Of a stretch of DNA of 64,000 bases, positions 23,571 to 32,162 are shown piece by piece (the stretch's first letter is position 1; each line of letters opens with the position of its first letter). Source of the DNA: Candidatus Woesearchaeota archaeon (GTDB lineage: Archaea; Nanobdellota; Nanobdellia; Pacearchaeales; GW2011-AR1); NCBI GenBank assembly GCA_964514585.1, contig CAZETU010000002.1:129486-193485 (forward strand), given 5' to 3'. Made by a program: the position numbers and the translations under genes. The notes under the pieces were generated by a model. The model was not told the DNA's origin. It did not search any database and saw only the letters and a program-made list of their open reading frames with translations.

Positions 23571-23685
23571 GTATGTTATGCAATATATATGTTGTGATAT
23601 AGTATATGCGAGTATATAGGTTCTTTGAAATAAAAAATGTATGTTAAGTATATAGTGTAATATAGTATATTGGAGTATATAGGTT
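23571..23685 (+). repeat. two imperfect ~50 bp direct repeats ending in ATATAGTATAT-NNN-GAGTATATAGGTT (orphan promoter-like modules)
   Basis: 23597-23622 atatagtatatgcgagtatataggtt versus 23660-23685 atatagtatattggagtatataggtt. The 13-mer GAGTATATAGGTT recurs at 56890-56902 within the TATA region of the gene starting at 56908. Confidence 0.8.
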
Positions 23686-23830
23686 TGGGCAGAAAAAAAG
23701 GACGGCTGCCTGACGGGGCGACATAGCTACTTTTGATGTCGCTTCCGGTAATGAACTTGATGTCTGTTGCGGTTGCGGTTGATGTTAGTGATGCGATGAC
23801 GATGGCTAGAATGATTGTAAGGTGTTTCAT
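23576..23830 (-). CDS. small secreted protein, probably truncated or fused at the block's left junction (84 aa as read)
   Basis: GAGGAG, then 6 nt, then ATG. N-terminal signal peptide MKHLTIILAIVIASLTSTATA. After about residue 45 the frame runs through a T7 tract into the AT-rich backbone repeats and simply translates them (PIYSNILYYTIY / PIYSHILYHNIY). Confidence 0.35.
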   Translation of the reverse strand: MKHLTIILAIVIASLTSTATATDIKFITGSDIKSSYVAPSGSRPFFLPKPIYSNILYYTIYLTYIFYFKEPIYSHILYHNIYIA

Positions 23831-23863
23831 GGTTTTCTCCTCTTCGAGTTTCGGACTTTTCGT

Positions 23864-23947
23864 TTACCAGGCAAACATACATATGATTGCCCAGATGGTT
23901 ATTACGGTAATAATTGCTATCCTGCAAGTTTCCTTCTTGTGATTCAT
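23864..23947 (-). CDS. micro-ORF, 27-aa single-TM peptide (MNHKKETCRIAIITVITIWAIICMFAW)
   Basis: Not in the track (<60 aa). AGAGGG, then 4 nt, then ATG. Hydrophobic core. Stop TAA at 23864-23866. Confidence 0.35.
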   Translation of the reverse strand: MNHKKETCRIAIITVITIWAIICMFAW

Positions 23948-24002
23948 TTTGCCCTCTTGCAAATTTTTTTGTGGGGTTGATAACGGCACATTACGACTTA
24001 CC

Positions 24003-24054
24003 ATTATATGGTATTAATGATAAATTGAAACATGTCGTTATGTGGGCTTGTCAA
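24003..24054 (-). promoter_or_regulatory. bacterial sigma70-like elements (exact TATAAT at 24008-24003, exact TTGACA at 24054-24049, spacing non-canonical)
   Basis: Both hexamers read on the minus strand between the 24063-24101 hairpin and the micro-ORF at 23947. They are 40 nt apart, so they cannot be one promoter pair. Confidence 0.3.
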
Positions 24055-24062
24055 TAAGGTAA

Positions 24063-24101
24063 GGCCCGCGAGCGGTGTTAGTGATGATTCGCTCGCGGGC
24101 C
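24063..24101 (-). terminator. GC-rich stem-loop just downstream of the 117-aa gene
   Basis: GGCCCGCGAGCG (24063-24074) pairs perfectly with CGCTCGCGGGCC (24090-24101). 12 bp stem, 15 nt loop. On the minus strand it is followed by TTACCTTATT. Confidence 0.5.
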
Positions 24102-24119
24102 TGATGTTGTGGGGGTGGT

Positions 24120-24473
24120 TTAGACTGTGACTGGTTTGCGACGGCGAGACTGGGTCGGTTCTCTGAGGACCGTTATCTTAACGCCACGTTCCTTCTGGAC
24201 GCTTCTGATTTGCCCGAGGGTTTTGCCGGCTCGGAAGTATGGGCCGTATATCTGGAGCAACTCTGTTGTAGCCGATACGGGTGGTTCATGTTTGGCTTCT
24301 GAGTTGTGATCTGTGGCCTGGACGACGACTGAGCAGTCTTCCCATGCTCTGAAAATGGGCATGTGCTCGACCTCCGGGTGGGTGGCTACTCGTTTTTTCA
24401 GGCATTCCAAATCTGTACTCACAATGTGTATGTTCCCGCTTCTTGCTACGAATATTTCTTTGATCGTTTCCAA
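24120..24473 (-). CDS. hypothetical protein (117 aa), TTG start
   Basis: AGGAG, then 8 nt, then TTG. Protein-like composition, unlike the overlapping 71-aa frame starting at 24501. Confidence 0.55.
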   Translation of the reverse strand: METIKEIFVARSGNIHIVSTDLECLKKRVATHPEVEHMPIFRAWEDCSVVVQATDHNSEAKHEPPVSATTELLQIYGPYFRAGKTLGQIRSVQKERGVKITVLREPTQSRRRKPVTV

Positions 24474-24479
24474 TTTTAT

Positions 24480-25436
24480 GCTCCTGACAATCCGTTAACA
24501 TTTCTCCTCCTCAACGTTTCATCTCAACGCAACACTTTTCTCAGAAACCTCCTTTCTGGCTATATTGCCGTTAGCGCTTGTGGGCCTTTCCACCTTTTAT
24601 TTCTTAAGTCTCTTACCCACCAGCTTGCCTTCCTATTTTTCTTTTTGGGTCGCCACCTTCTTCTTGTTCCTATTCTTTCCAGTGGCAACAACAACCCATG
24701 CTCCGACTCCTTACCTTTCATCACTCCATTCCTCCGATGTACTTCCTTTTCTTCTTTGAATCTTTTGAAAGCCCATGAGCGTGATATGAGTAGCCTCATG
24801 GGCTCATAGTGTTCTGGAGCTACTCTTGTCCTTCCTTTGCTATGCTACGCTGCCCGTGTTGCTCGTAAGGAAGCTGCCCTTCTTCGACAAGGTTCTTTCC
24901 TTTCCACCTCCCCTTTTCTGGTAATTTTTGGGGCAGTGTTATTTCTTCTCCTTGCCTTCAGAACTTCAATGAGTGGCGAGTTGCATGTTTTGCATCTGGT
25001 TGTTCTCGCCCTGTGTTCTCTTGTCCCGATGGGGCAATTTCCCTTTTCGTTCGAGCATTCTTTCAGCATAACTAGCGTCCTTTCGCATTCCGTTTCCATT
25101 GCGAGTTTTTTACGCTTTCTCTAGTGCAATCTAGCACTCTGTAGTGATACTCTCCTTTCTGTGCTCATTAATATGGCCGTTCACCGATTGGCCTTTTTTG
25201 GTTTTTTCTTCTTCGGATTCTTTCCGCTCCTAGCTCTTATTTCCGCTTTTGTCAGTGGTCTCTTCTTACACTTTCCTGACACTAGAGCTCCCCTTCAAAT
25301 CCGTTTTCCGTTCTAGTTCTCACTCTTAGTACAATCTAACACCCTTACAATTGACCTCCTTTCGTTATCTATGTTCTTTCTTGTTTTCACGTCCCCTTTT
25401 TGTTTACCTCCTTTCCGGGGTTGATGTTGATATGAA
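24480..25436 (-). other. ~0.95 kb purine-rich (gene strand) segment without a convincing ORF; carries four GAAAGGAG(G/A)-type motifs and a repeated TGTTA..GATTGT motif
   Basis: The plus strand is C+T-rich. ACCTCCTTTC occurs at 24547-24556, 25354-25363 and 25406-25415, and CTCTCCTTTC at about 25150-25159. See findings. Confidence 0.6.
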
Positions 25437-25512
25437 TCGGGGCGGAAGGATTCGAACCTTCGACCTCCAGCTTCTGCTAAGCTGACGCGCTACCAAACTG
25501 CGCTACGCCCCG
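25437..25512 (-). tRNA. tRNA-like gene with a 9-nt anticodon loop (isotype undetermined)
   Basis: Hand fold: CGGGGCG TA GCGC AGTTTGGTA GCGC G TCAGC [TTAGCAGAA] GCTGG AGGTC GAAGG TTCGAAT CCTTC CGCCCCG A. Every arm is canonical except the loop. Confidence 0.7.
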
Positions 25513-25568
25513 GGCTGCTGCGTTATGGTATGTTATTTTATTTGCAGCAGGTGATGCAGATGTTAGTG

Positions 25569-26027
25569 TTATTTTCTTGCTTCCCTTATCGTTAACTCGG
25601 TCATCTTGTATGTTTTGATCGCAATCAGTTTAGCTAAAGAAAGCGATCCGATGAGACCGAGAATGAAGATGTGTAAGGTGATATCTTTTGTGCTCTTGCT
25701 CTTGATTATACTTGGAATCTGGAGCAGCTCTTCTCCCATTCTTTGGTATATTGATGGGATGGACTCGGTACATCCTTGTATGGTAGCCATTAGTCCGTTT
25801 CCTAATCCGTTTATCCCGTTGATGGGGAATAGGATTAGGCTTAATAGTCCGACGAAGCAGAGCGTTCCGATGATTCCTTTTGGAAGCACTGATGCGATTT
25901 TCCACGAGATTATTATGTGAACAATCGCTGTTGCGACGAAGAATGCTTCCTGATTGATTTGTGAGAGTACAATCAGGCTCATGAGTGTTACCGCTGCCAA
26001 AACTCTCTTTATGTTCTCATTAGACAT
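25569..26027 (-). CDS. integral membrane protein (152 aa, about 4 TM)
   Basis: GAAAGGAAGAGG immediately before the ATG. Four long hydrophobic segments. Confidence 0.65.
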   Translation of the reverse strand: MSNENIKRVLAAVTLMSLIVLSQINQEAFFVATAIVHIIISWKIASVLPKGIIGTLCFVGLLSLILFPINGINGLGNGLMATIQGCTESIPSIYQRMGEELLQIPSIIKSKSTKDITLHIFILGLIGSLSLAKLIAIKTYKMTELTIREARK

Positions 26028-26110
26028 CCTCTTCCTTTCAAAATGGGGAAAAGGCGTCCGTGCCTGATTCTCAATCCGTTCCTATAACAACAACGAGAGG
26101 CAAAGAGAAA

Positions 26111-26512
26111 CTATTTCTTGCGCGCAAGGAAGTCCTGGGTGAGGGTCTGGATTTCCTCAGTAGACTTTCCTTGCTCGACGAGAGTCTTGATTAGGGAGGA
26201 TTTTGTTTTGACAATTTTCTCCCTGTGAGCCTGCTCGTTTCTTTCTTTCAAGGCCATTGTTTCTTGTGTGGCCTCGATGTGAGCCTGCTCGTTTCTTTCT
26301 GAGACGGTTCTGTTGAACCGCTCATTGGCTCTGTCGACCATTTCTTGTCCGCCGACAGCTACTTGTGCACCGGCGGTTTCGAGAGCAAGAACCTTGATGC
26401 CGTTTTTGTTGACTGTCAATCCAGAGAATTTGGTGCCTCCGGTTTGACCTGCGCAGCCAGTGAGGGCGGTGATTGCTACGAGTGCTACTGCGATGAGGAT
26501 TTGTCTTTTCAT
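26111..26512 (-). CDS. lipoprotein (133 aa) with a duplicated ERNEQAH segment
   Basis: Start moved to MKRQILIAVALVAITALTGCAG, a signal peptide with lipobox L-T-G-C. The longer track ORF (to 26572) adds an implausible leader. Confidence 0.65.
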   Translation of the reverse strand: MKRQILIAVALVAITALTGCAGQTGGTKFSGLTVNKNGIKVLALETAGAQVAVGGQEMVDRANERFNRTVSERNEQAHIEATQETMALKERNEQAHREKIVKTKSSLIKTLVEQGKSTEEIQTLTQDFLARKK

Positions 26513-26523
26513 CTTGTGAACCC

Positions 26524-26592
26524 TTAAGAATTGTTTCTTAGGTAGATGGTGATTAGCGTGAGGCCAATCCACAACAAAATGTCGTTTCCCAT
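26524..26592 (-). CDS. micro-ORF, 22-aa TM peptide (MGNDILLWIGLTLITIYLRNNS)
   Basis: Not in the track. GAAGGAGAA directly before the ATG, so the spacing is very short. Hydrophobic. Confidence 0.3.
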   Translation of the reverse strand: MGNDILLWIGLTLITIYLRNNS

Positions 26593-26665
26593 TTCTCCTT
26601 CTTTCCTTTGGGTTTCGTTTGTTCCCTTGGGTGCGCCGTAGTAAAAAGCATCACCTTTGAGATAA

Positions 26666-26749
26666 TGATAATAGAAGGAATCGAACCTCCATCTCCCCAC
26701 AGATCTGAATATGAAACGTGGGTGGCCCTACCAATTGGGCGATACTATC
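26666..26749 (-). tRNA. tRNA-like gene (84 nt) with a 19-nt anticodon loop / extended anticodon arm (isotype undetermined)
   Basis: Hand fold: GATAGTA TC GCCC AATTGGTA GGGC C ACCCA [CGTTTCATATTCAGATCTG] TGGGG AGAT GGAGG TTCGATT CCTTC TATTATC A. Confidence 0.6.
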
Positions 26750-26802
26750 TGCATACTTCTTCGTCATTTGGGTTATCTGAACGATGTTGGTTCAGAACGA
26801 TT

Positions 26803-27000
26803 CTAGCTGTTTCTCAACGAGAATGTTGCAGCAGCTAGGGTAATTCCTGCGATGAAACCAGGAACAAGAGCTTTTCTGATTAGTTCAAATCCCTGGAATA
26901 TATCTTGACCTACCGCTTTGCCTAGGTTGCAAAATGCAATCGCGCCAAAGAGTATTGCGATTGCGAACAAACTATATGTTACTTTTTGTTGCGTTCTCAT
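26803..27000 (-). CDS. small membrane protein (65 aa, 2 TM)
   Basis: GAGGAGGG, then 5 nt, then ATG at 27000 (MRTQQKVTYSLFAIAILFGAIAF...). The 131-aa track ORF's N-terminal extension looks non-coding. Confidence 0.55.
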   Translation of the reverse strand: MRTQQKVTYSLFAIAILFGAIAFCNLGKAVGQDIFQGFELIRKALVPGFIAGITLAAATFSLRNS

Positions 27001-27029
27001 TATGTCCCTCCTCGCGTTAAGGTTACTGG

Positions 27030-27224
27030 TTAATTTGTTGTTTTGCGAATCAGGATTCTTCTGATGACTAGGAGCGTTATTACTACTCCTACTCCAAGTA
27101 AGCTCCATCCTTCTTGTTGCATGAAGAGCTTTCTTGTGGCTTCTATTAGGAATATGGAAGCCGCTACTGTGGTTACTTTTGCCAAAACCTCCATCCACTC
27201 TTTTCTGTTTTGTCGTGCGGTCAT
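27030..27224 (-). CDS. small membrane protein (64 aa)
   Basis: GGGGAGAA, then 6 nt, then ATG at 27224 (MTARQNRKEW...). Two hydrophobic segments. Confidence 0.5.
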   Translation of the reverse strand: MTARQNRKEWMEVLAKVTTVAASIFLIEATRKLFMQQEGWSLLGVGVVITLLVIRRILIRKTTN

Positions 27225-27263
27225 CGGCGTTCTCCCCATTTAGTGATGGTTGGTGTTAACAAT

Positions 27264-27316
27264 AAACGTGGAGCCAGCCAGAGCAATGCTCTGTTCCAGA
27301 TGCTGGCTCCACGTTT
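27264..27316 (-). terminator. 15-bp perfect stem-loop followed by TTTATTGTT on the gene strand
   Basis: AAACGTGGAGCCAGC (27264-27278) pairs with GCTGGCTCCACGTTT (27302-27316). The loop contains its own 6-bp hairpin CAGAGC/GCTCTG. A second hairpin lies at 27325-27360. Confidence 0.5.
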
Positions 27317-27428
27317 GGAAGTATCAGATGCTTACCTTTGGTGGTATGAGGTAGCATCTGCGTTGATTGACTGGAGTTAATTCGCTAGTTGTAAATAGTG
27401 TTCAGCCCCGAGCCGTCGCTGTGATGGG

Positions 27429-27650
27429 TTATTCGTTGTTCGGGTCGGTGATTGTGATGGTAGGGGTGTCGTTGATCGTGGTGATTGGCAAGCTCTTTAT
27501 CCCTTCGCAGAGAAGAATAATGGCAATCCCGATGAGAACGAAATTTATCCCACAGGCGATTGCGAAGTTTTTTTCCTTGCCAATGATCATAACTATGCCC
27601 ATGGTTATTATTGTGAATGCGATGATGATTATGATTAGTGTCCAGGTCAT
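27429..27650 (-). CDS. small membrane protein (73 aa, 2 TM)
   Basis: GAGGAAGG, then 4 nt, then ATG at 27650 (MTWTLIIIIIAFTIITMGIVMII...). The 198-aa track ORF upstream part is rejected. Confidence 0.6.
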   Translation of the reverse strand: MTWTLIIIIIAFTIITMGIVMIIGKEKNFAIACGINFVLIGIAIILLCEGIKSLPITTINDTPTITITDPNNE

Positions 27651-27921
27651 AATACCTTCCTCTAATAGAGTGGTGGATTTGGTGAAAACGATAAAACACA
27701 GAACCGGTTTACTAAGTGGCGTGACTGCTTTCGTCAAAGTTGCCGGTGGCTTTGCGCTTGTTGTTGGAGGTGCGAACTGGGCCGTGATGCGGTCGTGTAA
27801 GTGTCGACCTGACCCAGTTCGCGAATGGCCTATCCCTTTGGAAGCGAACTTAGGGAGGATCCTTCTTTGCCCTAACTGTAAGCTAAGGGCCCAGGATTTT
27901 TTCGGCCACCATCGTAATGAA

Positions 27922-28203
27922 TCAGTTGTGGAGCTGAGTGACTGCGGCTTCAATCTTTTCCGGATCGAATTCACACCCCAGCATCTCCTGTCGGATTTTC
28001 TGGGGGTCAAGGCCGCACACTCCATTTATGGCCACCGCTATTTCTGCAAGTGTTGCGTTGCAGCCATTCTCTGAATGGAGTGTTTTGATGGCTACTTTTG
28101 TGGGAAAGGTTGTCATTAGGGTTTGCGCGATTTCCCTTGTTCCTTTCCCTTTCATCTCTTGCGCCATTCGTTGTGCTGCGTTATGCTTTGTTACTATATT
28201 CAT
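27922..28203 (-). CDS. hypothetical protein (93 aa)
   Basis: AAGGGAG, then 5 nt, then ATG at 28203 (MNIVTKHNAAQRM...). The track start at 28269 would overlap the tRNA-like gene. Confidence 0.55.
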   Translation of the reverse strand: MNIVTKHNAAQRMAQEMKGKGTREIAQTLMTTFPTKVAIKTLHSENGCNATLAEIAVAINGVCGLDPQKIRQEMLGCEFDPEKIEAAVTQLHN

Positions 28204-28263
28204 AACGACTCCCTTCTTGTAGGTTTTTTTCTGTGCTAAGATTTTTGTTCCATTTGTGAATAA

Positions 28264-28338
28264 GGCCAACGGAGGGAATCGAACCCTCGACTTCTGCTAT
28301 TGACTAAGCAGCACTCTACCAAACTGAGTTACGTTGAC
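28264..28338 (-). tRNA. tRNA-like gene with an 8-nt anticodon loop (isotype undetermined; GTC/TCA triplets in the loop)
   Basis: Hand fold: GTCAACG TA ACTC AGTTTGGTA GAGT G CTGCT [TAGTCAAT] AGCAG AAGTC GAGGG TTCGATT CCCTC CGTTGGC C. Confidence 0.7.
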
Positions 28339-28388
28339 CCTGCTGCTTACACCCCGTTATTGTCTTCTCTCCCGTGTTTTGGAGAGAT

Positions 28389-28634
28389 TTAAGCTACATG
28401 GAGTTCTGCCCTTGGTTCCATGATTTCTTGGGTGTATTCTATCACAAGGACTTCTTCGGTTTCGATTCTCTCGATTTCCTTGATGACTCTCGAAATTGTT
28501 CGTTCGAGCCCTTCTTTCAACTTTCCTCCTGACTCCCTTCTTATCTCTTGGATCATGATCTCCCGATTTCCTTTTGCTTCGGGTCCGTGTCCAAGTACCT
28601 CTATGGCGATTTTCTCGATTTGTTGATTTCTCAT
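28389..28634 (-). CDS. hypothetical protein (81 aa), E/K/I-rich
   Basis: AGGAGAAG, then 6 nt, then ATG. Confidence 0.55.
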   Translation of the reverse strand: MRNQQIEKIAIEVLGHGPEAKGNREIMIQEIRRESGGKLKEGLERTISRVIKEIERIETEEVLVIEYTQEIMEPRAELHVA

Positions 28635-28681
28635 TTGTTGCTTCTCCTATTGCTTGGTTCTGGTGCGAGCCGATTGTTGAA

Positions 28682-28755
28682 AACCAGCGGAAGGATTTGA
28701 ACCTTCAACCTTAGCTTTACGAAAGCCACGCTCTAACCAGTTGAGCTACGCTGAT
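28682..28755 (-). tRNA. tRNA-Thr (anticodon CGT), canonical
   Basis: ATCAGCG TA GCTC AACTGGTTA GAGC G TGGCT [TTCGTAA] AGCTA AGGTT GAAGG TTCAAAT CCTTC CGCTGGT T. 7-nt loop with T33 and A37. Confidence 0.85.
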
Positions 28756-28768
28756 TACTTGGCTGATT

Positions 28769-29419
28769 CTAGTGATGCAGTGAGGCCACCAACGCAGAGT
28801 TTTCCTGATTTGCTTTTGGCCTCTTCTCTTTCCCTTCCCTTGATTTTTCTATGAGATCGACCAAGGGTTGTATGTCTATGCTCATTTTTTCGGCCCAGCT
28901 TTTTGCGAGCATGATATCTATTCCATCAAAAAGGGGGTCTTGGGTTTTCATAGCCTCTTTGAGAAAATGGAGGACCATCAGCGGAGTTCCCATTGTCTTA
29001 ATCTCTTCTACCTCTTTTGAGATATCGAGACCAAGGCTATCCGCGTGTATTTCCGCTATTATCAGATCGGTTACCCATCCTCTTTCGCTCTTTAGTGCGA
29101 ATTTTCGAGCTTGTTTGAGAGAGGACGTCATTATATTTTGATGCCCAGTTTTTTCGATACCTCTTGTTTCTTCCGAGATATCGAGCCCAGTTTTTTTCGC
29201 AATGTTTTTGGCCAGTTCCAAATAGGTGACATAGATAATATCCCCCTTCGCTGCGAACTTTCGAGCTCCTTGGAGGTACTTGGTTATGGAAATTTGATTT
29301 TCTGTTGGGGCGGAGGTTTCGATGGGTTCTGTGCTTTTTTCCATCTGAGTGGGGGTGCAAATTCCTCCCAGAATCATGCCTATCAAAGCCAGTGTTACGA
29401 TAACTCTTTCGGTATTCAT
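28769..29419 (-). CDS. membrane-anchored or lipoprotein-like protein with three ~45-aa internal repeats (216 aa)
   Basis: N-terminal hydrophobic segment ending GGIC. Repeats: LQGARKFAAKG..GLDISEETRGIEKTG, LKQARKFALKS..GLDISKEVEEIKTMG and a third degenerate copy. Confidence 0.65.
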   Translation of the reverse strand: MNTERVIVTLALIGMILGGICTPTQMEKSTEPIETSAPTENQISITKYLQGARKFAAKGDIIYVTYLELAKNIAKKTGLDISEETRGIEKTGHQNIMTSSLKQARKFALKSERGWVTDLIIAEIHADSLGLDISKEVEEIKTMGTPLMVLHFLKEAMKTQDPLFDGIDIMLAKSWAEKMSIDIQPLVDLIEKSREGKEKRPKANQENSALVASLHH

Positions 29420-29451
29420 TCTCTTTTCCTTAACTAGGGGTTGGCTGTGAA

Positions 29452-29523
29452 AACCAGCGGAAGGATTCGAATCTTCAACCTTAGCTTTACGAAAGCTATG
29501 CTTTATTGTTGAGCCATGTTAGT
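29452..29523 (-). pseudogene. decayed copy of the tRNA-Thr(CGT) gene
   Basis: The 3' 55 nt are nearly identical to 28682-28736, including the TTCGTAA loop. The 5' acceptor and D arm are mutated (2-nt deletion; the acceptor no longer pairs). Confidence 0.6.
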
Positions 29524-29528
29524 ATAAT

Positions 29529-29627
29529 GTAGGACCCGGTTGCAGAGGAAGGAGAAATGCGCTTGGGGCAGCTGTCTCCATTGCGCCCTTGCAATGCTGC
29601 TCTCATGTGAGGAGAGCCGGGTCCTAC
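29529..29627 (-). ncRNA. candidate structured RNA (~99 nt) closed by an 11-bp helix
   Basis: GTAGGACCCGG (29529-29539) pairs with CCGGGTCCTAC (29617-29627). Internal hairpins are CTCTC/GAGAG, ATTGC/GCAAT and GCAGC/GCTGC. The strand is uncertain. Confidence 0.35.
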
Positions 29628-29640
29628 GTCTTGCGGAGAG

Positions 29641-29760
29641 CTAGATTGCGAAGGCTAGGATTGTGGCGAAACTCGCAAGGACTATTGTGACTACGAGTTT
29701 TAGGTTTTGTTCGCCTTCTTCTTCTGGTGGATTGAGACGTTCTACTTGATATCTTTCCAT
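29641..29760 (-). CDS. micro-ORF, 39-aa C-terminal-TM peptide (MERYQVERLNPPEEEGEQNLKLVVTIVLASFATILAFAI)
   Basis: Not in the track. ATG at 29760, TAG at 29641-29643. Weak RBS. The overlapping 62-aa track ORF is in another frame and is Arg/Ser/Thr-rich. Confidence 0.4.
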   Translation of the reverse strand: MERYQVERLNPPEEEGEQNLKLVVTIVLASFATILAFAI

Positions 29761-29869
29761 CTTGTTGTTCTTCTGTTTGGGTTGTTGACGGTGCATTGTG
29801 ACCTACCATCATATAGAATCAATGGTAGGCGGACGGCGAACCGTCTAGTTTGTGGGGTGTGTCGTTAGG

Positions 29870-31777
29870 TTAGTTGTTTTGCTCTTGGAGGAGTTGTTTG
29901 AGTTTTTCTGGATCAATTCTTGAAGGATCCACTCCTCTGAGCATCGTTTCGACGTCTTGGACTTTTTGCACGCGATCGACTTCTTCGTCGGTGATGGGTT
30001 TTGCTGCCTCGTAGCGTGCCTGCTCTGGGTGTTCTGCCCTTAGTTCCAGGGATATGATGTCGAAGGTTGAAACTGTGATTACCTTCTCTCTGGTTTCAGG
30101 GTATGACACCTTGACCATTTCGTCCGGTGCGATTGCAGCCACTTCTGGATTTCTGAGGGAATAGCTTGTTCTGAATATTTTGCTTATCCCTTCGAGACGG
30201 AATCCGTAGACGGCTTGGCCGTTCGTGAGACTTAGAAGATTGACGCTCACGATCCTTCTTGTTAGGTGGAGAATCTTGGCCGGCATAGCTCCAGGGATGT
30301 GTTGATCTTGGCCGGCGGTTGCGATTTTCTGGGCGTAGTTATCTAGGGCTTCTTCTACTGTCGTCCCTTTCGCCTTTAGGGTGTTTGTAATGTCTGCTAC
30401 CGAGTAGCCTATCATTTGGCTTTCTTGGCACATCGGCATGATGTAAGTCAGTCGTCCGTGTATATTGTACGGAACGAATAAAGCTGGGAGTACTCCCGGA
30501 GACTCTGGCCACAAGGCGTTGCCGGCTTGGTAGATTTCGTTTTCGGTTACACCTTGAGTACTGTAGAAGGTTGTTTCTCCTGTGCATGTGTCGCTGACGA
30601 TGAATCCGGTGAGCGCTAGATCGGACTCCATGCTTGTGAAGCCGCTGTACCATTTGGTTCGTTGGCTTTTGTGGTCGTAGACCATATACCAACCTTTGGT
30701 TGGCTGCTGGGATTTGTCGCTTTGCCATATGGTATACATCCAATCGGCGTTTCGGTACCAGCCCCATTTCTTGATGTTGGATTCGAGTACATCTATTGGC
30801 ATTGCCCGATCGACCCATTTCGGAAGCTCATCGATTGAGTGATGTTCATGTTCGCCGGTTACCAAGTTGAAGGCTACGATACCTGTGACTTGGCGGGCAC
30901 TCCAGCCGTGCTTTCTCTCTATCGTTGAGACGGTGTAGTAAGGGTTCCAGTTGTCGTCTACTTCGAAGGTCCAGTCTTCTAGTATAGTGAAGCGGTAACC
31001 TTCAGCGCGTAATTTGCGCTTTGCTTTATATCCCCAGCAGGCGCTATTGACGTACTTGATATGGATTTCCTCGCCCTGGGCATTATGCTGTACGGCCTGT
31101 CCTTCTTTGTAGGGATCTTCGGCCGAGACTCTGAGGAAGCCTGGAACTTGTGGGTCTCTACGCCATGTTTTCCATCCTTGGAATTCTACGGGGTAGATAT
31201 ACCAAAGATGTTGATTAACGAACTGGATGGTGGGTTCTTCCCCGATTTCGTATCTTGAGCCTGGCACGACATTGTTCGGCATCTTGAACTTGCTAAGGGC
31301 CGTTTGTGCCGCTTTGAATGCTCTTTCCGGGGGCACTTGCAGGATGTGAGCGTTGTCGGAGGGGGTAATGACTTCTGCGAGGTTGCCTTCTATGACTTTG
31401 ACTTCGCCGATTAGCCCCGCTTTTTGCTTGGCATTTGTGGCATCCCATGTTCCGGTGATTACAATCCATAATCCCCAGACGAGCAAGAGGATGATGCCGA
31501 GTGCACCACCTGCGCATCCCGCCGTATCTTCATGGTTTGTCAATGTCCCTATAAACCCGCCGATTATGCATCCGATGACAACTGACCAGAAGACGGGGGT
31601 AGGGCCATAGAAGCCGATTGCTCCGAAGTAATAGACGCAGGACAGTATCAACCCATAAATGGCTCCGCCCAAAACTCCTGCGATAATGGTTTTGCCGAAT
31701 TCCTTTTTCGAGCATACTGCTCCGAAGACGGCGGTTGTTGTGACTGTCGCGATACCGACGATCAATGCGATCCACAT
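29870..31777 (-). CDS. large orphan membrane protein (635 aa): N-terminal Gly-zipper-like TM bundle plus a ~520-aa extracytoplasmic domain
   Basis: GAGG, then 7 nt, then ATG. About 4 N-terminal TM helices rich in GxxxG (GGAIYG, GGFIGT, GCAGGALG). The remainder is W/Y-rich and soluble-looking. No family recognised. Confidence 0.8.
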   Translation of the reverse strand: MWIALIVGIATVTTTAVFGAVCSKKEFGKTIIAGVLGGAIYGLILSCVYYFGAIGFYGPTPVFWSVVIGCIIGGFIGTLTNHEDTAGCAGGALGIILLLVWGLWIVITGTWDATNAKQKAGLIGEVKVIEGNLAEVITPSDNAHILQVPPERAFKAAQTALSKFKMPNNVVPGSRYEIGEEPTIQFVNQHLWYIYPVEFQGWKTWRRDPQVPGFLRVSAEDPYKEGQAVQHNAQGEEIHIKYVNSACWGYKAKRKLRAEGYRFTILEDWTFEVDDNWNPYYTVSTIERKHGWSARQVTGIVAFNLVTGEHEHHSIDELPKWVDRAMPIDVLESNIKKWGWYRNADWMYTIWQSDKSQQPTKGWYMVYDHKSQRTKWYSGFTSMESDLALTGFIVSDTCTGETTFYSTQGVTENEIYQAGNALWPESPGVLPALFVPYNIHGRLTYIMPMCQESQMIGYSVADITNTLKAKGTTVEEALDNYAQKIATAGQDQHIPGAMPAKILHLTRRIVSVNLLSLTNGQAVYGFRLEGISKIFRTSYSLRNPEVAAIAPDEMVKVSYPETREKVITVSTFDIISLELRAEHPEQARYEAAKPITDEEVDRVQKVQDVETMLRGVDPSRIDPEKLKQLLQEQNN

Positions 31778-31856
31778 AATTCTACCTCTCTTTCTTGGAA
31801 GTGTGTGTTTTAGTTAGGACGATTGGTGTTATGTCGTTAGTTTGTGGGGGGTGGTG

Positions 31857-32039
31857 CTAAGGCGTCTTCTTTTCGGTGAGAACATGTCTTTTCATAATCC
31901 TCTTTGTTATTGTGTTTTGCCGTTTTGCCGATCCTTTATGCTTGGCTGTGATCAATGCACCAAAAATGCCTGCTGCCATTGCACTTTTTGGTATCAGCCC
32001 TTTTGCTTCTGAGCACCATACGGGGATTTTGTTGCTCAT
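31857..32039 (-). CDS. small basic protein (60 aa) with one hydrophobic segment
   Basis: AAAGGAGAA, then 5 nt, then ATG. Confidence 0.5.
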   Translation of the reverse strand: MSNKIPVWCSEAKGLIPKSAMAAGIFGALITAKHKGSAKRQNTITKRIMKRHVLTEKKTP

Positions 32040-32051
32040 GCCTGTTCTCCT

Positions 32052-32162
32052 TTACCAAAGAAGTATTGTGATGATGACTGGGAACGTGTGATAAGCTCTC
32101 CAGTTTTCTGCGACCTGTAGACAGAAAATCTGGATTACCCACTTATTGGGTTCTTTCTTCAT
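32052..32162 (-). CDS. micro-ORF, 36-aa peptide (MKKEPNKWVIQIFCLQVAENWRAYHTFPVIITILLW)
   Basis: Not in the track. GAGGAGAA, then 6 nt, then ATG at 32162. Its stop lies 12 nt before the next start. First gene of the array. Confidence 0.4.
   Translation of the reverse strand: MKKEPNKWVIQIFCLQVAENWRAYHTFPVIITILLW

What the first reader, a model, noticed from the sequence alone, without database searches (positions are those of the whole stretch)
28264..28338. tRNA-like gene 3: canonical arms with an 8-nt anticodon loop UAGUCAAU
The fold is GTCAACG/CGTTGGC (one G-U), ACTC-AGTTTGGTA-GAGT, CTGCT[TAGTCAAT]AGCAG, AAGTC and GAGGG-TTCGATT-CCCTC. The 5-bp anticodon stem is perfect, so the loop is unambiguously 8 nt. 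Eight-membered loops are the classical signature of +1 frameshift-suppressor tRNAs. Read that way the four central bases GUCA would pair with UGAC, but position 33 is A rather than U. As a triplet reader it could be GUC (Asp) or UCA (UGA).

Three of the four intact tRNA-like genes in this block deviate in exactly the same structural element, while their other arms are intact. That argues against random decay.
Basis: partly seen in the sequence, partly recalled or inferred. Interest (0 to 1): 0.75.

Follow-up and report, generated by a model that had tools for sequence, protein, structure and literature searches.

The report
Foreign tRNA copy with eight-base anticodon loop
A well-formed bacterial-type tRNA gene with an eight-base anticodon loop lies in a block of foreign DNA inside a small archaeal genome, beside two other tRNAs with over-long loops; it is more likely a tRNA-shaped RNA that no longer decodes than a frameshift suppressor.

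Summary
On the minus strand, 28338->28264 is a high-scoring tRNA (Rfam 50 bits). Every stem and tertiary-contact base is canonical, the anticodon stem is a perfect 5 bp, and the loop is 8 nt (UAGUCAAU) with A at position 33. The sequence is identical in about ten independent assemblies.

It is one of five co-oriented tRNA-like genes interleaved with small ORFs in an ~8.4-kb higher-GC cassette (about 23.7-32.1 kb). The cassette sits in an archaeal (DPANN-like) chromosome and is of bacterial or phage ancestry. The loops are 9 nt, 17 nt, 8 nt and a normal 7 nt (Thr-CGU). The fifth gene is a visibly decayed copy.

tRNA 3 differs from the neighbouring Thr-CGU at 6 of 21 stem pairs. All six changes are compensated. 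The decayed copy has 8 broken pairs. This is not random decay.

The frameshift-suppressor reading has no support. There is no in-frame UGAC, no credible +1-dependent gene and no sign of recoding, and position 33 is A. A 17-nt loop in the same set cannot decode.

My best reading (confidence about 0.35) is a tRNA fold that no longer decodes, kept as a processing or stability element of a co-transcribed cassette. A non-standard decoder (G-1:C73, His-like end) is not excluded. No homologues were found, so function is inferred.

The parts
28264..28338 (-). tRNA-like gene 3: complete class-I cloverleaf with an 8-nt anticodon loop. The discriminator is C73, and G at 28339 (-1) can pair with it.
   Evidence: Rfam RF00005 50 bits; ARAGORN; RNAfold cloverleaf; sequence read
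28299..28306 (-). The 8-nt anticodon loop UAGUCAAU (U32 A33 then GUCA or GUC or UCA), closed by the perfect 5-bp stem CUGCU/AGCAG
   Evidence: Direct reading; Infernal places its only insertion here
28682..28755 (-). Canonical tRNA-Thr(CGU) with a 7-nt loop. It is the nearest paralogue of gene 3: the acceptor stems share 5 of 7 pairs, and the other two differ by compensated changes.
   Evidence: Rfam 63 bits; ARAGORN; alignments; identity
29452..29523 (-). Decayed duplicate of tRNA-Thr(CGU): the 3' 49-58 nt are 91-96% identical, G18G19 are lost, and 8 pairs are non-canonical. It serves as an internal control for what decay looks like here.
   Evidence: Rfam 40.8 bits with 8 'v' marks; repeat family D3; self-BLAST; no stable fold
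26666..26749 (-). tRNA-like gene 2: intact acceptor, D and T arms, with a 17-nt anticodon loop GUUUCAUAUUCAGAUCU
   Evidence: Rfam 44.4 bits; sequence; fold. ARAGORN misses it.
25437..25512 (-). tRNA-like gene 1: bacterial tRNA-Pro body (C1:G72, A73) with a 9-nt loop UUAGCAGAA in place of UUUGGGA
   Evidence: Rfam 60.4 bits; 79-84% identity over the full length to cyanophage tRNA-Pro
23700..32100 (-). Foreign cassette: GC 0.43-0.51 against 0.33-0.40 in the flanks. All ORFs and tRNA-like genes are on the minus strand. The flanking host genes are archaeal.
   Evidence: Composition; ORFs; host Pfam hits aIF5B, L35Ae, L10e and archaeal-type GluRS
29870..31777 (-). 635-aa membrane protein, the only cassette ORF with relatives. 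These are Patescibacteria (CPR) chromosomes at 35-55% identity, and Firmicute genomes and their phages at 22-27%.
   Evidence: AF2 model pLDDT 83; full-length structural match to a viral protein
28389..28634 (-). 81-aa ORF with a Shine-Dalgarno-like site. It ends 50 nt upstream of gene 3.
   Evidence: no family hit
27922..28203 (-). 93-aa ORF with a Shine-Dalgarno-like site. It starts 60 nt downstream of gene 3 and has no relatives among 5.8 billion proteins.

Best explanation
Gene 3 is a real, fully foldable bacterial-type tRNA gene and a sister copy of the adjacent tRNA-Thr(CGU). It was carried into a DPANN-like archaeal chromosome on an ~8.4-kb cassette derived from a mobile element. Its anticodon loop has been remodelled to 8 nt with A33. 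Two neighbours were remodelled to 9 and 17 nt, while every stem and tertiary contact was kept. What the three share is loss of normal triplet decoding with retention of the L-shaped body. I therefore read them as tRNA-shaped RNAs that no longer decode. They sit between small co-oriented ORFs, 13-56 nt after a stop codon and 32-150 nt before the next ribosome-binding site. In that position they would most plausibly be the RNase P / RNase Z cutting and end-stabilising sites that break a long cassette transcript into separate mRNAs. The anticodon loop is the one place where a foreign tRNA's potentially harmful decoding can be switched off without losing that fold. Shown: the structure, the loop sizes, the foreign origin, and that the pattern is not random decay. 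Inferred: co-transcription, processing, and loss of decoding.
For: The cloverleaf is intact and scores highly. Reading the sequence shows all canonical tertiary positions: U8, A14, G15:C48, G18G19, A21, G26:A44, G46, G53-U54-U55-C56, A58 and C61. Six of 21 stem pairs differ from tRNA-Thr(CGU) by double compensated changes and none is broken (sequences). The decayed copy in the same block has 8 broken pairs. Three of the four intact genes deviate only in the loop, at 8, 9 and 17 nt, and a 17-nt loop cannot decode. All tRNA-like genes and ORFs share one strand with short spacers. Promoter-like sites are not enriched in the block (12 found against 10.5 expected). The only minus-strand terminator-like hits near the tRNAs are their own T arms. 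A strong hairpin follows the last ORF at 24066-24103. None of the genes encodes CCA, and all are followed by UU. The foreign, bacterial or phage ancestry rests on the GC step, the tRNA-Pro body with C1:G72, and the 635-aa gene shared with CPR bacteria and Firmicute phages.
Against: There are no expression data and no homologous cassette, so selection on the fold cannot be shown. The block is monomorphic. RNase P and RNase Z need only the acceptor and T arms. A processing role alone does not explain why the D arm, the tertiary network and the perfect anticodon stems are kept; that pattern fits a molecule still handled as a tRNA, or a very recent change. One gene in the set keeps a normal loop. 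Each loop needs at least two mutational steps, which suggests directed change rather than simple knock-out. The DNA-level search for relatives covered only phage, plasmid and viral collections.
Confidence: 0.35

Rival explanations
1. A functional non-standard decoder. The 8-nt loop would read a quadruplet (GUCA with UGAC, a +1 shift or UGA-C suppression) or a triplet (GUC for Asp codons, or UCA for UGA). Charging would probably be with histidine, because G-1:C73 is the main HisRS identity signal. That would cause programmed frameshifting, read-through or deliberate mistranslation.
For: The L-shape with its full tertiary network is intact, as expected for a molecule handled by synthetases, elongation factor and ribosome. 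G-1:C73 forms an 8-bp acceptor helix. In the U32-A33-[GUCA]-A37-U38 reading, positions 32, 37 and 38 flanking the four-base anticodon fit a normal loop. There are natural precedents: yeast mitochondrial tRNAThr1 decodes triplets with an 8-nt loop (PMC3113583), and A33 is tolerated in the translating tRNAProX family (PMC10404621). The closest relative of the 635-aa gene (L027) sits beside a CUA suppressor tRNA. Gene 1 has U32-U33 and A-A flanking five bases, the layout used for engineered five-base decoding (my own knowledge).
Against: No in-frame UGAC occurs in the cassette, and the only UGA stop is UGAU. No credible +1-dependent ORF was found. There is no sign of stop-codon recoding, and the 635-aa gene is colinear with its homologues. 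A33 removes the U-turn nucleotide. The overall body is nearest to tRNA-Ala and tRNA-Thr rather than tRNA-His. It lacks G3:U70, G73 and G10, so the charging identity is ambiguous. The 17-nt loop of gene 2 cannot be explained this way. No conserved homologues were found.
Confidence: 0.2
2. A young, functionless pseudogene. The cassette is a decaying fragment of a bacterial or phage tRNA cluster, and the loop changes are simply the first lesions, with no role for the RNA.
For: The cassette contains a clearly decayed tRNA copy and a 770-bp duplication. Apart from the 635-aa gene, the cassette ORFs tested are orphans. Bacterial-type tRNAs may be useless in an archaeon. The GC content has not drifted toward that of the host, which implies recent arrival. 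No relatives carry similar tRNAs.
Against: Lesions confined to the ~9% of positions in the anticodon loop, in three independent genes, each needing two or more events and with no lesion elsewhere, are very unlikely under neutral decay (roughly 0.09 cubed, or less than 1e-3, even with one event each). The block's own pseudogene shows scattered, uncompensated changes instead.
Confidence: 0.2
3. A tRNA mimic used in conflict. The loop-expanded tRNAs would act as decoys or inhibitors for anticodon-loop nucleases or other enzymes that bind tRNA, as a counter-defence cargo of the mobile element.
For: tRNA clusters on mobile elements have been proposed as counter-defence systems (abstract of PMC12803027). 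Only the loop, which is the nuclease target, is altered, while the recognisable body is kept. The cassette has phage-related ancestry.
Against: No nuclease, toxin or defence gene was recognised in the cassette (Pfam, PHROGs and NCBIfam found nothing; PADLOC was not run). I know of no described case of expanded-loop decoys. The idea is purely inferential.
Confidence: 0.1

Closest known systems
+1 frameshift-suppressor tRNAs (sufD, sufJ, SufA6/SufB2; PMC4238358, PMC7803779)
   Same: An 8-nt anticodon loop on an otherwise normal tRNA body.
   Different: Known suppressors arise from a single-base insertion next to the parental anticodon. They keep U33 and read the parental codon plus one base. Gene 3 has A33, its loop cannot be derived from a canonical loop by one insertion, and no target site exists in its cassette.
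Yeast mitochondrial tRNAThr1 (UAG anticodon, 8-nt loop UUUUAGGU, derived from tRNAHis; PMC3113583, PMC4756836)
   Same: A natural 8-nt loop on a remodelled tRNA. It has a link to His identity features (G-1/C73) and shows that 8-nt loops can read triplets.
   Different: tRNAThr1 lost G-1, keeps U33, is conserved across ten yeast species and has a co-evolved synthetase. Gene 3 keeps G-1:C73, has A33, and has no known relatives or partner enzyme.
tRNAProX family of Streptomyces/Kitasatospora (tRNAProA/T/N; PMC10404621)
   Same: Non-canonical A33. In gene 1, a Pro-type body (C1:G72) carries a non-Pro anticodon region that contains AGC.
   Different: tRNAProX members have 7-nt loops, A34, A15:A48, usually G21, and a linked ProRSx gene. 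Genes 1 and 3 have 9- and 8-nt loops, G15:C48 and A21, and no synthetase was recognised among the cassette ORFs tested.
tRNA gene clusters or arrays on phages, plasmids and other mobile elements (PMC6409571, PMC4758250, PMC6333295)
   Same: Several co-oriented tRNA genes interleaved with small ORFs on foreign DNA, with duplicates and pseudogenes among them.
   Different: Three neighbouring genes whose only defect is an over-long anticodon loop is not a feature I found described. This cluster also sits in an archaeal chromosome but is of bacterial type.
tRNA punctuation and tRNA-like processing signals (mitochondrial polycistronic transcripts; mixed bacterial tRNA-mRNA operons such as the tufB operon; my own knowledge)
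   Same: tRNA folds placed between coding regions on one transcript, where RNase P and RNase Z cuts release the mRNAs.
   Different: Not demonstrated here. In the known cases the punctuating tRNAs are also functional decoders.

Membership tests
tRNA (Rfam RF00005) fold | Cloverleaf with 7/4/5/5-bp stems and the conserved D-loop and T-loop nucleotides | tested here: met
   50 bits against a gathering score of 29, model positions 1-71. U8, A14, G18G19, A21, G53-U54-U55-C56, A58 and C61 were read.
Canonical elongator tRNA | A 7-nt anticodon loop with U33 and a purine at 37 | tested here: not met
   The loop is UAGUCAAU, 8 nt. No single deletion restores a 7-nt loop with U33.
+1 frameshift-suppressor tRNA | An 8-nt anticodon loop | tested here: met
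+1 frameshift-suppressor tRNA | Loop derived from a cognate tRNA by one inserted base, with U33 retained | tested here: not met
   It has A33. Compared with the nearest relatives (Thr-CGU UUCGUAA, Ala-AGC UUAGCAA, Asp-GUC CUGUCAC), at least two changes are needed.
+1 frameshift-suppressor tRNA | Target genes that need a +1 shift at the cognate quadruplet | tested here: not met
   0 of 9 UGAC occurrences in the cassette ORFs are in frame. The single 0/+1 overlap (27924) is not credible. Only the cassette was examined.
+1 frameshift-suppressor tRNA | Measured suppression or aminoacylation | not testable with these tools
   Needs reporter assays and charging assays.
tRNAProX (mistranslating Pro-identity tRNAs) | C1:G72, A33, A34, A15:A48, a 7-nt loop and a linked ProRSx gene | tested here: not met
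   Gene 3 has G1:C72, G15:C48 and an 8-nt loop, and meets only A33. Gene 1 has C1:G72 but U33 or a 9-nt loop, G15:C48 and A21. No synthetase domain was found in the cassette ORFs tested. Criteria are from PMC10404621.
tRNA-His identity | G-1 paired with discriminator C73; anticodon GUG | tested here: inconclusive
   G at 28339 and C73 are present and pair in the fold. The anticodon is not GUG, and the body is not closest to tRNA-His by BLAST.
Archaeal intron-containing pre-tRNA (bulge-helix-bulge) | A 4-bp helix flanked by two 3-nt bulges around the insert | tested here: not met
   One or two extra bases cannot form the motif. For the 17-nt loop of gene 2, checking all registers by hand gave at most 2-3 of 4 pairs with no proper bulges (sequence, fold).
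tRNA pseudogene by decay | Uncompensated stem mismatches and loss of invariant bases | tested here: not met
   Gene 3 has none. The neighbouring copy at 29452-29523 has them and serves as a contrast.

The most novel reading that the evidence does not exclude
A mobile cassette transferred from bacteria or their phages into a DPANN archaeon carries a deliberately built set of tRNAs with expanded anticodon loops (8, 9 and 17 nt) on intact bodies with His-like and Pro-like acceptor ends. These RNAs would be active. They would act either as non-triplet or mistranslating decoders that reprogram translation of particular messages, or as tRNA mimics that neutralise anticodon-directed nucleases. That would be a natural multi-member system of loop-expanded tRNAs not described before.
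Probability: 0.15. Interest if true: 0.8.

Novelty: new variant of a known kind. Interest (0 to 1): 0.45.

Why it matters
Natural tRNAs with expanded anticodon loops are rare. The known ones (frameshift suppressors, yeast mitochondrial tRNAThr1) have been informative about how reading frame and codon identity are set. Three such genes side by side, each with a flawless body and carried on cross-domain foreign DNA in an ultra-small archaeon, would be new in either case. If they are active, this is a natural case of non-triplet or deliberately erroneous decoding. If they are kept only for their shape, it shows tRNA folds being reused as RNA-processing or decoy elements. If they are merely recent wreckage, the finding is a caution for tRNA annotation in metagenomes. 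The cassette also documents bacterial/phage-to-archaeon transfer in a DPANN genome.

Tried and rejected
1. Assembly artefact: rejected. The block is identical in about ten independent assemblies.

2. Archaeal bulge-helix-bulge intron in the long loops: rejected by hand-checking all registers.

3. Stop-codon recoding in the cassette: the stop-codon maps show nothing consistent. Two adjacent TAG-terminated ORFs in one frame (25099-24562) are noted, but no CUA tRNA is present.

4. +1 frameshift targets: only the 93-aa ORF continues into an open +1 frame. That frame is rich in R, S and K, looks non-coding, and already holds a separate 73-aa membrane ORF with its own ribosome-binding site.

5. Loops acting as antisense or kissing partners: no complement of 7 nt or more above chance in the cassette.

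6. Membership of tRNAProX: rejected.

7. Codon-supply logic: the cassette prefers C-ending codons (ACC, GCC, UGC, CUC) far more than the host does. Because the anticodon cannot be assigned, this proves nothing.

8. Search for related cassettes:
- The 216-aa and 93-aa ORFs are orphans.
- No small cassette ORF matches any fetched locus.
- About 80 loci that encode relatives of the 635-aa protein carry only ordinary tRNAs, or none nearby.
- DNA patterns for genes 1 and 3 found nothing in viral contigs.
- BLAST against phages and plasmids gave only generic tRNA similarity of 83% or less.

9. Orthology to the tRNA-Asp(GUC) that lies 1.5 kb from the 635-aa gene in four CPR loci: the anticodon arms are similar (CUGCC/GGCAG-AAGUU against CUGCU/AGCAG-AAGUC). 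The strand, the acceptor stem and the discriminator differ, so this stays only a lead.

10. A shared upstream motif for genes 1 and 3 (AATAAC-N9/10-GCAGCAG): present but weak.

11. Pfam, PHROGs and NCBIfam on the cassette ORFs: nothing useful.

Full report
**Observation**

The feature lies on the minus strand. Read 5'->3' from 28338 to 28264 it is GUCAACG-UA-ACUC-AGUUUGGUA-GAGU-G-CUGCU-[UAGUCAAU]-AGCAG-AAGUC-GAGGG-UUCGAUU-CCCUC-CGUUGGC-C. Infernal scores it 50 bits against Rfam tRNA (gathering score 29, E = 1e-7) over the whole model. The only insertion is in the anticodon loop. ARAGORN also calls it. RNAfold's minimum-energy structure is the cloverleaf with an 8-nt loop.

Every base that builds the L-shape is canonical: U8, A14, G15:C48, G18G19, A21, G26:A44, the 9-23-12 and 46-22-13 triples, G53-U54-U55-C56, A58 and C61. 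The 5-bp anticodon stem is perfect, so the loop (window 28299-28306) is unambiguously 8 nt, with A at position 33. The 8.9-kb surrounding block is identical, with 0-1 mismatch, in contigs from about ten independent samples or assemblies. The extra base is therefore not an assembly error.

**Surroundings**

Rfam finds five tRNA-like genes on the minus strand between 25.4 and 29.5 kb:

| Gene | Coordinates (minus strand) | Anticodon loop | Comment |
|---|---|---|---|
| 1 | 25512->25437 | 9 nt, UUAGCAGAA | bacterial tRNA-Pro body |
| 2 | 26749->26666 | 17 nt, GUUUCAUAUUCAGAUCU | other arms intact |
| 3 | 28338->28264 | 8 nt, UAGUCAAU | the finding |
| 4 | 28755->28682 | 7 nt | normal tRNA-Thr(CGU) |
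| 5 | 29523->29452 | normal 7-nt loop (UUCGUAA) | decayed duplicate of gene 4 |

- Gene 5 shares 91-96% identity with gene 4 over its 3' 49-58 nt. It has lost G18G19, has eight non-canonical pairs and does not fold stably.
- The genes alternate with small ORFs on the same strand, most with Shine-Dalgarno-like sites. Spacers are short: 13-56 nt after a stop codon and 32-150 nt before the next start.
- The block from about 23.7 to 32.1 kb has GC 0.43-0.51, against 0.33-0.40 outside it.
- The flanking genes are archaeal: aIF5B, ribosomal proteins L35Ae and L10e, an archaeal-type GluRS and PEP synthase. The host is an archaeon with a small-genome, low-GC, strongly strand-skewed chromosome, which looks DPANN-like.

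**Origin of the block**

- The only ORF with relatives is the 635-aa membrane protein (29870-31777). It is 35-55% identical to proteins of Patescibacteria (CPR) genomes, and 22-27% identical to proteins of Firmicutes and their phages.
- Its AlphaFold model (pLDDT 83) has a full-length structural match to one viral protein.
- The model also has local OB-fold matches, among them the anticodon-binding domain of LysRS. Sequence searches do not support that match.
- Gene 1 is a bacterial tRNA-Pro body (C1:G72, A73), 79-84% identical to cyanophage tRNA-Pro.
- The other ORFs tested have no relatives.
- The cassette is therefore foreign DNA of bacterial or mobile-element ancestry, fixed in this archaeal population.
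- None of about 80 loci that encode relatives of the 635-aa protein has a comparable tRNA block. No comparative data exist for gene 3.

**What gene 3 is related to**

- By overall similarity its body is closest to bacterial tRNA-Ala. The best hit is 83% identity to a Vibrio megaplasmid tRNA-Ala(AGC) whose loop is UUAGCAA.
- Its acceptor stem is closest to the neighbouring tRNA-Thr(CGU).
- Against that neighbour, 15 of 21 stem pairs are identical. The other six (1:72, 5:68, 10:25, 27:43, 28:42, 51:63) differ on both sides and still pair. None is broken (sequences).
- Its anticodon arm also resembles that of a CPR tRNA-Asp(GUC).
- It lacks G3:U70 (Ala), and G73 and G10 (Asp).
- It does have discriminator C73 with a templated G at -1 that pairs with it. 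From established knowledge, that is the main histidine identity signal.
- Its charging identity therefore cannot be assigned.

**Is this decay?**

No. The block's own pseudogene (gene 5) shows scattered, uncompensated damage. Genes 1, 2 and 3 are damaged nowhere except the anticodon loop, and each loop needs at least two mutational steps to derive from any canonical loop. The loop holds about 9% of the positions. Three loop-only outcomes are very unlikely under neutral decay, at less than 1e-3 even with one event per gene.

**Is it a frameshift suppressor?**

I found nothing to support that.

- No UGAC is in frame in any cassette ORF (0 of 9 occurrences).
- The one UGA stop is UGAU.
- The only ORF followed by an open +1 frame (the 93-aa ORF, stop at 27924) runs into sequence that looks non-coding. 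That sequence already contains a separate 73-aa membrane ORF with its own ribosome-binding site.
- The 635-aa gene is colinear with its homologues.
- There is no pattern of stop-codon recoding.
- Known suppressors keep U33 and differ from their parent tRNA by one inserted base. This gene does neither.
- The 17-nt loop of gene 2 cannot decode at all, so quadruplet reading cannot be the feature the set shares.
- Bulge-helix-bulge introns were excluded by hand.
- The loops have no complementary targets in the cassette.
- The Streptomyces tRNAProX family shares A33, and gene 1 shares its Pro body carrying AGC. That family is defined by 7-nt loops, A34, A15:A48 and a linked ProRSx gene (PMC10404621). 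These genes are not members.

**Most likely explanation**

What the three genes share is loss of ordinary decoding with the tRNA body fully preserved, inside a co-oriented, tightly spaced ORF-tRNA-ORF arrangement. Promoters and terminators are not enriched between the genes. None of the genes encodes CCA, and all have U-rich trailers.

I therefore favour tRNA-shaped elements that no longer decode and that act as RNase P / RNase Z processing and end-stabilising sites of a cassette transcript. The loop is the place where a foreign tRNA's decoding can be disabled without losing the fold (confidence about 0.35).

The main weakness is that processing needs only the acceptor and T arms. Retention of the D arm, the tertiary network and the perfect anticodon stems points either to a very recent change or to a molecule still used as a tRNA.

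The rivals are:
- an active non-standard decoder (about 0.2), with precedents in the yeast mitochondrial tRNAThr1 8-nt loop reading triplets (PMC3113583) and in A33 tRNAs that translate (PMC10404621);
- a young functionless pseudogene (about 0.2);
- a tRNA decoy against anticodon nucleases (about 0.1).

**Limits**

There are no expression or charging data. The population is monomorphic.

**Verdict**

The structure is real and well formed, and the loop-only deviation is non-random. The frameshift-suppressor label is unsupported. Function remains inferred. Interest is moderate.

Noticed in passing
window 23700-32100: An ~8.4-kb higher-GC cassette (0.43-0.51 against 0.33-0.40) of bacterial or phage ancestry is inserted between archaeal genes (PEP synthase and a HerA-like ATPase). 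It is fixed and monomorphic in every sample that carries this genome. No integrase and no flanking direct repeats were recognised.
   Followed up: partly
window 28678-28735 and 29448-29505: A 770-bp direct duplication: an intact tRNA-Thr(CGU) and a decayed copy of it bracket the orphan 216-aa ORF (28769-29419).
   Followed up: yes
window 29870-31777 (-): This 635-aa protein has four N-terminal transmembrane helices and beta-rich domains. The family is undescribed (no Pfam or NCBIfam hit) but widespread in Patescibacteria and present in Lactobacillus and Enterococcus phages. Foldseek gives one full-length viral match (A0A6G5YLZ4, TM 0.61-0.65) and local OB-fold matches to the LysRS anticodon-binding domain.
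   Followed up: partly
L027 9296-9367 (+): The contig that encodes the closest relative (55%) of the 635-aa protein carries a well-formed tRNA with a CUA anticodon (an amber-suppressor or Pyl-like call, 60.6 bits). This hints at stop-codon reassignment in that element.
   Followed up: no
L014 13358-13432, L035 13501-13575, L044 3250-3324, L051 2915-2989: In four CPR loci an identical tRNA-Asp(GUC) lies about 1.5 kb downstream of the 635-aa homologue, on the opposite strand. Its anticodon arm and variable loop resemble those of gene 3.
   Followed up: partly
window 25515-25542 and 28173-28200 (also 28340-28365): The leader just upstream of gene 1 (AATAAAATAACATACCATAACGCAGCA) recurs, with 23 of 27 bases matching, at the 5' end of the 93-aa ORF downstream of gene 3. 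Genes 1 and 3 both have AATAAC-N9/10-GCAGCAG immediately upstream. The significance is weak.
   Followed up: partly
window 24562-25123 (-): Two adjacent small basic ORFs (84 and 79 aa) lie in the same frame. Each ends in TAG and no other stop lies between them. The first has a weak zinc-ribbon-like Cys pattern (NCBIfam E = 0.002, far below the cut-off). Two copies of TAGATTG(T/C)ACTA lie upstream, at about 25140-25340.
   Followed up: no
window 24066-24103: A 12-bp GC-rich hairpin (GGCCCGCGAGCG...CGCTCGCGGGCC) lies just after the last cassette ORF (117 aa, 24120-24473). It probably marks the end of the transcription unit.
   Followed up: no
window 23577-23685: Two AT-rich direct repeats of 46 nt, 63 nt apart and 80% identical, lie at the left edge of the cassette between it and the PEP synthase gene.
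   Followed up: no
window 1-64000: Strand asymmetry is extreme across the host sequence. GC skew reaches +0.58 and AT skew is negative on the plus strand, even where genes are on the minus strand.
   Followed up: no
window 26666-26749 and 29452-29523: ARAGORN misses both the 17-nt-loop gene and the decayed copy, while Infernal finds them. Surveys that rely on ARAGORN would undercount such genes.
   Followed up: yes
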